Source: Raillietiella orientalis
Lineage: Eukaryota
DNA length: 64,000 bases
Direction: 5' to 3'
Assembly: GCA_036172245.1 (NCBI GenBank)
Contig: JAYWIR010000005.1
Location: 1,798,001 to 1,862,000, forward strand
Shown: in pieces, positions 4,500 to 26,870 of the stretch
Layout: every line of letters begins with the position of its first letter
Numbering within the stretch: the stretch's first letter is position 1
Translations under genes and position numbers: made by a program
Notes under the pieces: generated by a model
Seen by the model: the letters and a program-made list of their open reading frames with translations, nothing else
Databases searched by the model: none
Told to the model about the DNA's origin: nothing

Positions 4500-4550
4500 C
4501 ACACACACACATACACACACACACACACAAACACACAATCAAACACATAC
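4500..4550. repeat. Imperfect (CA)n microsatellite
   Basis: acacacacacatacacacacacacacacaaacacac visible directly. Confidence 0.9.
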
Positions 4551-4791
4551 ATGCCTATTCCACGTAGGTCCATATTCGCGCTCACTTTAATACGCATGAT
4601 TATTACCAAAGATTATTAACCTTCCTAGTAGTAACAGTCATATTCTTGGGGGTATTCACCGAATAAGATTTATTAACACACAATTCATTAATATAATCAA
4701 TAAATTGTTGATTAATCTGTTGATATTTATCATGAAGATTACAATAAATAAATACACATGCTTATATGTCGATATGTATACTTACTTAAAG

Positions 4792-4812
4792 ATTAATCTG
4801 ATAAGAACCGAT
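4792..4812 (-). ncRNA. U2: U2 snRNA continuation fragment (nt ~39-59)
   Basis: Reverse complement ATCGGTTCTTATCAGATTAAT vs U2 ATCTGTTCTTATCAGTTTAAT (19/21), collinear with the 5' fragment. Confidence 0.8.
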
Positions 4813-4875
4813 TTTTATTAATACAAAGGTTACAACACTGTGTTTTATATGAATGGCTGTGCCTCTGCCTTTGAT
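4813..4875 (-). mobile_element. 63-bp insert in U2, probable extreme 3' end of a U2-targeting non-LTR element (Utopia/Keno type)
   Basis: Sits between U2 GTGTAG and (T)ATCTGTTCTT and ends in TAATAAAA immediately before U2 resumes. Confidence 0.7.
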
Positions 4876-4912
4876 CTACACTTTGATCTTAGCCAAAAGG
4901 CCGAGAAGCAAT
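4876..4912 (-). ncRNA. U2: U2 snRNA 5' fragment (nt ~1-37), non-functional
   Basis: Reverse complement ATTGCTTCTCGGCCTTTTGGCTAAGATCAAAGTGTAG matches the U2 5' end ATCGCTTCTCGGCCTTTTGGCTAAGATCAA(A)GTGTAG with one mismatch. Confidence 0.92.
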
Positions 4913-7449
4913 TAATGTATGCATTAGTGTATATTATGAAAATTACAATAAATAAACGTGTGCTTATACTACACAGATTAAGATACAAATTCACCTGAAC
5001 ACACATAGTTGTTCCTATTTATTAACGTACACATCATTAACAGTAATATTATTAGAGATACATGTTCATTAAGATTCATGTACATACATGATATTAAGAA
5101 ACCGTTGATGATATTGTTGGTATATACATTGAAGATAATAAAACATAAACATATGTGCTCATCATACATATATATTTTAAAAAGCAATGCATAAATTAAT
5201 ATCTATCATTACGATTACAAAAATTTAATGTATATTCGTATATATATTTATGTAAAGATTAATATACTGGTTAATGTATATTACATAGAGCATGATGATT
5301 AGTTATGTATATTTAATTAATCTTAACGTACACATTGTTAACAGTAATATTGCTAGAGATATACGTTTATTAATGTTAATTGTCATACATTTTATTAATG
5401 TACTTAATAAGTGCTGATTATATTGTACGTATTAAAGATGATAAAAAAACAAACACATATGCTTATTATGTACATTGATATGTATATAATAAGTATGTAT
5501 AGATGAGTGATTGAATTAATGTATACCCTGAGGGCCCTATGAAATACATATGCATGCTTATTACATGTATTTATATATATATTCATACACACGCACATAC
5601 ATATACACACGTATTTATATCTATTTTCACATTATCTTGAAATACCGATGTATGTAATAAGCATATACATCTAATTTAAATAATCTTCGTGCCAATCTTT
5701 CGTGTTCACGATGTAATCAACAACCTATTGATTATATTAATAAAATGCATGCCAATCACTGTTAATAAGGATATCTGTTGAGTCGTGCTACTGTTTCGAA
5801 TACGTGTGTTAATGAATAATGCGTGTGCTATTAAATGAATAAATAAATACGCATCTCGAAGTAAATTTGTGGACGAATCTGTGTAGCGCGTATGTGCTTG
5901 TGTTTCGGTGACCTTCCGGGCGTCCCGGATTTTCGCCCGGCTCCGGCGGATGCGGCGACGTTTCCTGGGACGCCAGCAACCGGGATCACCGGAAGGAACT
6001 CGCCGCGCATCCCGAACGCGGCTTCTTGCGAGGAAGAAGGGGGAGGAGGAAGGGAGGAAGGTTTTTCCTCCTTTTTTCCCATTCTGCTTTCCTGCTTTGG
6101 AGCTCACGGGATCGCCTCAAGGCCGTCGCATGGTTCTGGAGCTCTCCGGCAAAGGAAGGCTCTGGACGGGAGTTGCATAGGAGGGGCCACAGGCGCCCTT
6201 GCCCTTTTCCGCGCTCACAGTTTGCACGCATCAGGATGGTGGATGGCGGTGGTCACCGTCTGGGATGAACCTGCACGACTGATCTACATCCTCGCAGCAT
6301 CGGCACGCCGCCGCTGCCTGTCGTCCTATCTCAATGTCTTGCAGACTGACCATGAGTGCAGATGTGATGCTGATCTCCAGCACACCCCCGTGAATCCTCG
6401 TTACGGAACTTCGGATCCAGTGGGTCTCCTTGGCAAAGGATTCCTTCGGGCAACGTGCCGAGTCTTGGGTGGGAGCGGCAAGCAGAAGGGACACCTGAGA
6501 AAGGAGGTTGCTGATCTCTAGAGGCGATCCCGCTGCGATTGTGAGATGGGACGCATCGTTTCTTCAATGGGGAGAGCTTGCTCCCTGAGACGTCCCTCGT
6601 CTAGCATGAATCCCTGAACACGAGGGGGTCACCCTTCCCTCCGGAGGCAGTAGGGAGGCGAGCCGGCTTTCCACGCAAACGCGGAGCGCACCGGGCGACG
6701 CTGCCTGAGACCGACCCCAGCGGAGAGAGGGAGGAGGCGGAACGGTGAACCGATGCTCCTGGAGGAAAAAGGCAGCTCGGCCCCCGAAGGTAAGGGAGTG
6801 ACGACCTTGCCCTCCACGTCCGAGCTGACGTCGGGATGCGCAGGAGATTCTTCCCCATTTGTCAGAGCTGCACTCGGTCCTACTCCGAGGTGCTACAGCA
6901 GTTCCCTTTTGCCCGGAGGGGCGCCAGACGGACATCTGAAGAAGATGGCCCGTTCAGCGGGTTTTCCCGTTTGCATCGGCGCAGCACTGAAGTCGCAGTC
7001 CCCAGTCGCCCCGAGACGAGAGACGCACGTCCCCATCTTTCTCCCTCAAAGAATGGAAGATTAATTAAGGGAAGGCAGATGATGGATCTCGGGCCGTGCG
7101 GCTGCAGAATGCGAAGCAACCCAGGAGGTCGGGATTTCATATTCCTCTTGACTTTGAAGGATATCTCAAAGGTCCGAGGAGACTTCGCGGCAGCAAGAGA
7201 ACCTCCCAAGCGTGCGAGAGTTTCCTTACCAGCCAGAATTCGGATTTCGTCTACGGAGATGAAGACGAAGATGCGTAGCGGAGATGTCTGGAAGATAAAA
7301 AGAGTGTGAGAGTGGAGGGGAGGGATGGGGAGAACTTAACGAAGCTGAAGGCTCCCCCAGGAACCCCAAGCAAGACGGGCGGCAGATGAAGAGTACCTTG
7401 CAGCAGGCGCGATACGCGGACGGAAGAAAGCTCTTCCTTTCGTGTGTCT

Positions 7450-26715: not shown

Positions 26716-26870
26716 TTACGACAGAATTCAACAATCATACTGAGAAGCAATGCAAGCATTCGGGTGACTTCTTACGACAGAATTCAACAATCATACTGAG
26801 CAACAATGCAAGCATCCGGGTGACTTTTTACGACAGAATTCAACAATCATACTGAGCAACAATGCAAGCA
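26716..26870 (+). repeat. 56-bp tandem repeat, ~2.8 copies
   Basis: TTACGACAGAATTCAACAATCATACTGAG starts at 26716, 26772 and 26828. Confidence 0.95.

What the first reader, a model, noticed from the sequence alone, without database searches (positions are those of the whole stretch)
4792..4916. Miniature U2 / insert / U2 cassette split at the Utopia/Keno target site, embedded in a satellite
Seen: on the minus strand, U2 nt ~1-37, then a 63-bp insert ending TAATAAAA, then U2 nt ~39-59, with no further U2. ATTAAT occurs at both ends (4792-4797 and 4911-4916). Removing the cassette restores a satellite motif (TAAAGATTAATGTATGCATTAGTGTATATT) resembling the one at ~5253. The insert begins by repeating U2 ATCAAAG. 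Known: Utopia (RLE-type) and Keno (Tx1 clade) non-LTR elements insert at this site of U2. Inference: a ~113-bp non-autonomous unit that moved together with its own U2 flanks, possibly an undescribed U2-headed mini-SINE, and evidence of a U2-targeting element in this genome.
Basis: partly seen in the sequence, partly recalled or inferred. Interest (0 to 1): 0.75.

Follow-up and report, generated by a model that had tools for sequence, protein, structure and literature searches.

The report
U2-capped stub of a Utopia retrotransposon
This is a dead 57-base tail of Utopia, a known jumping gene that targets U2 snRNA genes, lying between short scraps of U2 far from any U2 gene; it is one of many independently made stubs rather than a new mini-element family.

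Summary
The cassette is real. On the minus strand it reads U2 nt 1-37, a 7-nt repeat of U2 26-32, a 57-nt insert and U2 40-53, bracketed by ATTAAT. Paralogues of the host repeat carry one ATTAAT, so it is a 6-bp target-site duplication. The insert is the 3' UTR of a retrotransposon with a restriction-like endonuclease (Utopia type, not Keno). The host is a dispersed AT-rich repeat, not a satellite array.

It is not a SINE family. I saw 17 promoterless U2-capped copies from several subfamilies, with inserts from 26 nt to about 1.5 kb where both ends were seen, and none shares an identical junction. All 4 promoter-bearing U2 genes in the assembly are interrupted at this site.

Two mechanisms stay open: one-step copying of a U2-headed RNA (0.5), or Utopia inserting into an older tailless U2 retrocopy (0.4). 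One genome-wide result stands out: perfect U2 21-39 sites are absent (0 of 64 hits), while 10 singly mismatched ones survive. The scan had already noted U2-capped Utopia tails elsewhere in this genome.

The parts
4911..4916 (-). 5' copy of the 6-bp target-site duplication ATTAAT; its last 2 nt double as U2 nt 1-2
   Evidence: single ATTAAT at the empty site in paralogues
4876..4912 (-). U2 snRNA head, nt 1-37 (36/37 identical), with no U2 promoter upstream (11/40 matches against 36-40/40 in real genes)
4869..4875 (-). Repeat of U2 nt 26-32 (ATCAAAG). The same stutter follows heads in L005, L006, L225 and the real gene L194. It also resembles the element's own AGATAAG at this position, so its origin is slightly ambiguous
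4812..4868 (-). 57-nt 3' UTR end of a Utopia-type non-LTR retrotransposon, from the conserved GCAGAGCC-like motif to the AATAAAAA end
   Evidence: 54/57 to L002, 48/57 to L007 (endonuclease-coding), 45/57 to L004
4798..4811 (-). U2 nt 40-53 (13/14), the canonical Utopia/Keno 3' junction
   Evidence: junction as in PMC4640811 S1 Fig
4792..4797 (-). 3' copy of the target-site duplication ATTAAT; also a 5/6 match to U2 54-59 (priming microhomology, inferred)
4560..5890 (.). Host: old AT-rich dispersed repeat with degenerate ~300-nt internal units; limits approximate; class not determined

Best explanation
A dead, severely 5'-truncated Utopia copy made in one ectopic target-primed reverse transcription event from U2-headed RNA. 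Utopia sits in U2 genes at nt 37/40, so the U2 promoter would make an RNA of U2 1-37 + Utopia + downstream U2 (gene arrangement shown; transcription inferred). At a nick in the AT-rich repeat, the DNA end paired with UUAAU in the RNA's U2 3' flank. The reverse transcriptase copied U2 53-40 and 57 nt of 3' UTR, then jumped to the U2 head, either on the same RNA or on a free U2 molecule. It stalled at nt 26, re-primed at nt 37 and copied to nt 1, and repair left the 6-bp duplication (all steps inferred). The product has no promoter and no function. The identity (Utopia tail at its U2 site, ectopic, RNA-derived) is about 0.9 certain; the confidence below is for the one-step route.
For: (1) All 4 promoter-bearing U2 genes found are interrupted at nt 33-38. 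(2) Ectopic L015/L260 has U2 1-38, no promoter, and the same 5' UTR as the real gene L259 (78%). It runs on through zinc fingers into protein 90% identical over 113 aa to the element in U2 gene L063. (3) The duplication encloses head, tail and U2 flank, and its 3' copy overlaps the U2 flank by 4-6 nt in L001, L024, L152 and L231. Only L024 and L152 are clearly above chance (10 and 7 of 500). (4) Short U2 3' flanks occur at ectopic sites with no head nearby (15 of 22), as expected if the flank comes from read-through RNA. (5) The head stutter also occurs in a real promoter-bearing gene (L194), where no older retrocopy is needed. (6) Several head-only copies continue TCT, as the Utopia 5' junction does, rather than TAT as intact U2 does (5 of 15; post hoc p 0.002). 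(7) R2 precedent: upstream target sequence in the template gives tandem duplications at 5' junctions (PMC3774820), and R2 jumps to U12 snRNA and tRNA in vivo (PMC3414825).
Against: The two-step route gives the same anatomy. Tailless copies of intact U2 exist here: 8 end at nt 40-42, and 5 fragments start near nt 26 and cross the site. Perfect U2 21-39 sites are missing, as if consumed. Stutters and inverted heads also occur in head-only copies. Mammals, where no Utopia is reported, have tailless U2 copies of the same ~35-nt length. No duplication was found in 6 of 13 cassettes tested. There is no RNA evidence, and whether Utopia RNA keeps or cleaves off the U2 head is unknown.
Confidence: 0.5

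Rival explanations
1. Two steps. A tailless U2 retrocopy (primed at about nt 59, stalled at 26, re-primed at 37, with the 6-bp duplication) landed first. Utopia then recognised it as a genuine target and inserted a 5'-truncated copy at nt 39/40, deleting U2 33-39. Scattered U2 retrocopies would then be a renewable pool of secondary targets.
For: 0 of 64 hits to U2 21-39 are exact, while 10 carry one internal mismatch and keep TA. Of 20 perfect 21-37 copies followed by T, none continues with A (p 0.003). Fragments lacking nt 1-25 stay unfilled even with a perfect downstream site (L059). L059 ends at nt 66, the same point as the flank of cassette L002. Real genes show 5' junctions at nt 33 and 36, so small deletions do occur. 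Heads cap U2-associated families (6 of 10) and not their relatives without U2 flanks (0 of 12; grouped by eye). Kojima and Jurka report insertion into U2-derived satellites and U2-like sequence (PMC4640811).
Against: It needs long (at least 53 nt) headed retrocopies as substrates for 9 cassettes, and none is seen unfilled: the longest headed copy reached nt 42-43, and no hit to 26-45 has a head. It also needs deletions of 9-11 nt in L024, L152 and L231. The missing perfect sites could instead reflect young copies coming from U2-Utopia co-transcripts.
Confidence: 0.4
2. A U2-headed mini-SINE or SIDE family amplified from one or a few master cassettes.
For: Nine cassettes have inserts under 100 nt, and three (L001, L003, L004) join at the same tail nucleotide. 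SINEU shows that U2-headed short retroposons exist (PMC4494074).
Against: No two cassettes share the whole junction. Tails fall into different subfamilies that group with different protein-coding copies (L004 with L007 93%, L231 with L207 91%, L003 with L214 82%). Only 4 or 5 other loci match most of the cassette. There is no promoter.
Confidence: 0.04
3. DNA-level capture of a piece of a U2 gene that already held a short Utopia insertion, for example during break repair.
For: Real U2 genes with truncated insertions exist (L194, 1.4 kb), and 36 of 58 junctions carry long U2 3' flanks, some running into downstream gene flank.
Against: The 15 ectopic copies checked start at or inside the U2 transcription start and carry no promoter (5-17/40 matches).
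Confidence: 0.05
4. The insert is the 3' end of a Keno (Tx1-clade, AP-endonuclease) element.
For: Keno uses the same 3' junction (PMC4640811).
Against: The same tail follows a restriction-like endonuclease frame in L007. That frame aligns to the L063 element (E 5e-23), whose C-terminus matches R2 proteins (E 3e-14).
Confidence: 0.01

Closest known systems
Utopia (NeSL-clade non-LTR retrotransposons targeting U2 snRNA genes; Kojima and Jurka 2015, PMC4640811: main text parts 1-3 of 5, S1 Fig part 1 of 8 and searched passages)
   Same: 3' junction before TCTGTTCTT; A-rich end as in tick and spider families; N-terminal zinc fingers, RT, CCHC knuckle and restriction-like endonuclease; several families per genome; disrupted U2 outnumbering intact; some copies outside U2 genes.
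   Different: The parts I read report no target-site duplication for arthropod families at U2, find 5' U2 flanks in only 11 families, and do not describe promoterless copies capped by U2 1-37 inside an ectopic duplication. Here these are common.
Tailless U2 retropseudogenes (Noll et al. 2015, PMC5322556: parts 3-4 of 5, passages, file S1, Table S6 parts 1 and 6 of 8; Kojima 2010, PMC2912911: passages)
   Same: U2 5' fragments of about 30-37 nt with duplications overlapping the fragment end; 188 exact head matches here, 21 of 61 with a duplication of 7 nt or more.
   Different: Reported from therian mammals, a lizard and a few in maize, and tied to L1. Here the host looks like an arthropod (inferred from the U2 sequence), and a subset is joined to Utopia.
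SINEU of crocodilians (Kojima 2015, PMC4494074: parts 2-4 of 5)
   Same: Short retroposed units with a U2-derived head; repeated 5' additions of snRNA sequence; partner elements related to a U2-targeting family.
   Different: SINEU has hundreds to thousands of copies sharing a structure, with poly(A) tails and Tx1 partners. Here each cassette is unique and ends in U2.
R2 5' junction duplications, SIDEs and snRNA template jumps (PMC3774820 and PMC3414825: passages)
   Same: Host-gene co-transcription, duplicated upstream target sequence at 5' junctions, jumps to snRNA.
   Different: R2 SIDEs carry a ribozyme, stay at the rDNA target and replicate as families. This cassette has no ribozyme and lies off target.
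Keno (Tx1 clade; as described in PMC4640811)
   Same: Same U2 junction.
   Different: Keno has an AP-like endonuclease; the parent element here has a restriction-like one.

Membership tests
Utopia | 3' end joined to U2 at TCTGTTCTT | tested here: met
   Window junction; 58 such junctions in the genome, control 0
Utopia | Parent element encodes a restriction-like (PD-D/ExK) endonuclease after a CCHC knuckle | tested here: met
   L007 carries the same tail after such a frame; L063 C-terminus matches R2 structures, E 3e-14
Utopia | RT domain and N-terminal C2H2 zinc fingers | tested here: met
   RVT_1 in L063; zf-C2H2 in L260, E 0.002-0.003, below the Pfam cut-off. Shown on related families; no RT-bearing copy of the window's own subfamily was traced
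Utopia | RT groups with Utopia/NeSL in a tree; no Myb domain | not tested
   No named Utopia reference proteins were fetched
Keno | AP-like endonuclease | tested here: not met
   Restriction-like endonuclease found instead
SINE / SINEU | Many copies from a master sharing head-body junction and structure | tested here: not met
   Junctions differ in all 13 cassettes tabulated; tails from several subfamilies
SINE / SINEU | Own promoter or shown transcription | tested here: inconclusive
   No U2 promoter upstream; transcription could not be tested
Tailless U2 retropseudogene | Starts at the RNA 5' end, no poly(A), flanked by a duplication with 3' microhomology | tested here: met
   true of the outer shell under either mechanism
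SIDE (short internally deleted element) | Keeps the element's own 5' end or ribozyme and replicates | tested here: not met
   No Utopia 5' UTR in the cassette; no copies with the same junction
Satellite DNA (host) | Head-to-tail tandem array | tested here: not met
   No Tandem Repeats Finder array; three degenerate ~300-nt units in a dispersed repeat

The most novel reading that the evidence does not exclude
Utopia and U2 form a self-feeding loop in this genome. Utopia RNA keeps the U2 1-37 leader from the host promoter, its reverse transcriptase scatters U2 heads and U2-capped stubs, and any ectopic U2 copy with a perfect site is hit again. That would explain the absence of perfect 21-39 sites, help explain how many Utopia families persist on a low-copy target, and make these stubs the kind of intermediate from which U2-headed SINEs such as SINEU arise.
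Probability: 0.3. Interest if true: 0.55.

Novelty: new variant of a known kind. Interest (0 to 1): 0.3.

Why it matters
The locus is a fossil of a known element and has no function. The set of copies is more useful. Kojima and Jurka left open how several Utopia families survive on few U2 genes, and Kojima left open how SINEU elements are transcribed. U2-capped ectopic copies and the lack of perfect ectopic target sites give two testable answers: transcription from the U2 promoter with the head retained, and U2 retrocopies as extra targets. Either bears on target recognition by R2-like enzymes now used for genome insertion. Interest is limited because the parts are known, the mechanism is unresolved, and the scan had already noted similar loci.

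Tried and rejected
1) Hard ceiling of U2 heads at nt 37. None of 61 heads passed nt 37, against 17 of 114 rows at 39 or more in a block of Table S6 that I take to be mouse (differences worked out by hand; Fisher p 0.0007). I dropped this as an absolute claim: a genome-wide pattern found 8 copies ending at nt 40-42, the methods differ, and the 60 loci skipped places already held.
2) Base pairing between the U2 head and the conserved 3' UTR motif, suggested by one fold (z -1.15). Rejected: mean z +0.4 over 53 UTRs, and control U2 segments did as well.
3) HDV-like ribozyme at the Utopia 5' end: no Rfam hit, no hit with my own descriptor (not validated on known ribozymes), folds not significant. 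The first ~100 nt are strongly conserved between the only two copies, so this is untested rather than excluded.
4) Expression: no RNA holder was listed; no evidence either way.
5) Phage collection searches found nothing and were not relevant.
6) The ESM Atlas gave only unnamed eukaryotic clusters, some with zf-RVT.
7) Ten of the 11 long window ORFs had no Pfam family.
8) An intact U2 gene was not found in the assembly; the arrays are probably under-assembled.
9) The 4/4 versus 0/13 capping test (p 0.0004) used a post hoc grouping, so I report the fuller 6 of 10 versus 0 of 12 instead.
10) Literature searches listed no paper on U2-capped ectopic Utopia copies. Repbase, Dfam and most subscription papers were not searched, and unread supplements of PMC4640811 may show such junctions.

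Full report
Observation. The sequence is as described. I number U2 by this genome's own sequence, assembled in a script from L034 and L059; it has the extra A seen in fly U2 in PMC4640811 S1 Fig. On the minus strand the cassette reads ATTAAT (4916-4911), U2 1-37 (4912-4876), U2 26-32 again (4875-4869), a 57-nt insert (4868-4812), U2 40-53 (4811-4798) and ATTAAT (4797-4792). Rfam finds U2 at E 9.7e-08, just under its gathering score.

The host. It is a 1.3-kb block of 28% GC with degenerate ~300-nt units, no Tandem Repeats Finder array, and many dispersed relatives. It is an old interspersed repeat, not a satellite. With the cassette removed it aligns straight through to paralogues, and 3 of 11 examined show a single ATTAAT at the site. 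The 6-mer is therefore a target-site duplication, although a 6-mer alone arises by chance in 52 of 500 trials.

What the insert is. A genome search with the cassette gave 218 candidates, 40 scored. The insert recurs in L002, L003, L004, L024 and L007. In L007 it ends a frame with the motifs of a restriction-like endonuclease, at 48/57 identity to the window. That frame aligns to the element at L063 (E 5e-23), which has RVT_1 and a C-terminus matching R2 structures (E 3e-14). The insert is thus the 3' UTR of a Utopia-type element, not Keno (definitions from PMC4640811). I did not build an RT tree, so clade membership rests on domain order and target.

Utopia in this genome. There are 58 junctions of an A-rich tail with U2 nt 40 onward (control 0). 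They come from many families sharing an AGATnnGGCAGAGCC-like motif about 55 nt from the end. Only 4 promoter-bearing U2 genes were found, all interrupted at nt 33-38. No intact U2 gene was found, probably because the arrays are under-assembled.

Not a SINE. I saw 17 ectopic U2-capped copies: L001, L002, L003, L004, L007, L015, L017, L024, L152, L154, L165, L180, L214, L225, L226, L231 and L240. Five or six of these were found with a query that contained the head, so the count is not a rate. In the 13 tabulated, heads end at nt 28-37, inserts run from 26 to 1,514 nt, and U2 3' flanks from about none to nt 176. Tails group with different coding copies. Three short ones do break at the same tail nucleotide, which looks like a stall site rather than shared descent. 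Among the 58 junctions, 7 of 22 with a short U2 flank have a sense head within 1.5 kb, against 1 of 36 with a long flank (the real gene L194; Fisher p 0.003); L225 adds an inverted head, and L250 has a weak inverted match 1 kb away. Among 30 endonuclease hits, 22 had the 5' junction in view. Six of 10 from U2-associated families were capped and 0 of 12 from relatives without U2 flanks (my grouping by eye).

Head-only copies. A 20-mer from U2 9-28 matches exactly 188 times (control 0). I fetched 60 of the 100 listed places, in contig order and skipping those already held. Their 61 heads end at nt 28-37, and 21 have a duplication of 7 nt or more (chance 5%). These are tailless retropseudogenes as known from mammals, where lengths cluster at about 35 nt too. 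The end point alone therefore says nothing about Utopia.

One-step route (0.5). The RNA is U2 head + Utopia + U2 flank, primed by microhomology in the flank, with a jump to the head. In favour: the promoterless copy L015/L260 has U2 1-38 and the same 5' UTR as the real gene L259 (78%), followed by zinc fingers and protein 90% identical to the element in gene L063. The head stutter also occurs in the real gene L194. Fifteen of 22 short U2 flanks have no head nearby. Five of 15 head-only copies continue TCT like the Utopia junction (post hoc p 0.002). R2 shows both upstream duplications and jumps to snRNA. I cannot tell whether the head came from the same RNA or a free U2.

Two-step route (0.4). 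Utopia filled an older U2 retrocopy. In favour: of 64 hits to U2 21-39 none is exact, 10 have one internal mismatch and keep TA, and 0 of 20 perfect heads followed by T continue with A (p 0.003). Eight of those 10 truly extend to nt 40-42. Five fragments starting near nt 26 cross the site unfilled. A retrocopy of 1-37 + 26-59 filled at 39/40 would give exactly the window's anatomy. Against: no unfilled headed copy passes nt 43, yet 9 cassettes need substrates reaching nt 53 or more. Both routes may operate.

Novelty. Utopia, tailless U2 copies and U2-headed SINEU are all known. Seven literature searches listed no description of promoterless U2-capped Utopia stubs or of depleted ectopic targets; Repbase and Dfam were not searchable. 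The scan's earlier notes on other pieces of this genome describe the same kind of chimera; my Utopia reading preceded that look-up. Verdict: a real but functionless fossil, a new variant of a known kind, interest 0.3.

Noticed in passing
L181 (G000:C81:70500-79000) and L182 (G000:C83:276000-284500): Related RT/endonuclease elements with long open frames (924 and 817 aa, RVT_1) end in antisense orientation in 28S rDNA (Rfam LSU), close to the R2 site as I recall it.
   Followed up: partly
L135 (G000:C9:4868500-4871070), about 330-800: U2 head 1-35, then a 5S rRNA fragment, then an endonuclease piece without U2 flank: possibly serial template jumps onto small RNAs.
   Followed up: partly
L063 (G000:C30:2722000-2730500): Promoter-bearing U2 gene whose head is followed by an inverted Utopia RT segment, next to other Utopia-filled U2 genes; looks like twin priming in a real target.
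   Followed up: no
L058-L062: Five U2 fragments all start near nt 26 and cross the Utopia site unfilled, suggesting a reverse-transcription stop at the base of stem-loop I.
   Followed up: partly
L117 (G000:C4:5835220-5837800): Two U2 heads in opposite orientation about 250 nt apart with identical upstream flanks, forming inverted-repeat arms.
   Followed up: no
L037, L038, L039, L044, L047: Each U2 3' part has a second, more diverged U2 3' copy in inverted orientation about 250-350 nt away.
   Followed up: no
L259 328-430 and L260 about 9325-9225 (minus strand): The first ~100 nt of the putative Utopia 5' UTR are much better conserved between the two copies than the rest; a structured RNA is possible, but no ribozyme was detected.
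   Followed up: partly
L260 9901-9480 (minus strand): Upstream of the ectopic head lies a short frame that looks by eye like a viral Rep/helicase fragment; not tested.
   Followed up: no
window 26716-26870: 56-nt tandem repeat, 2.8 copies, 95% matches.
   Followed up: no
window 4500-4551: CA microsatellite at the left edge of the AT-rich host repeat.
   Followed up: no
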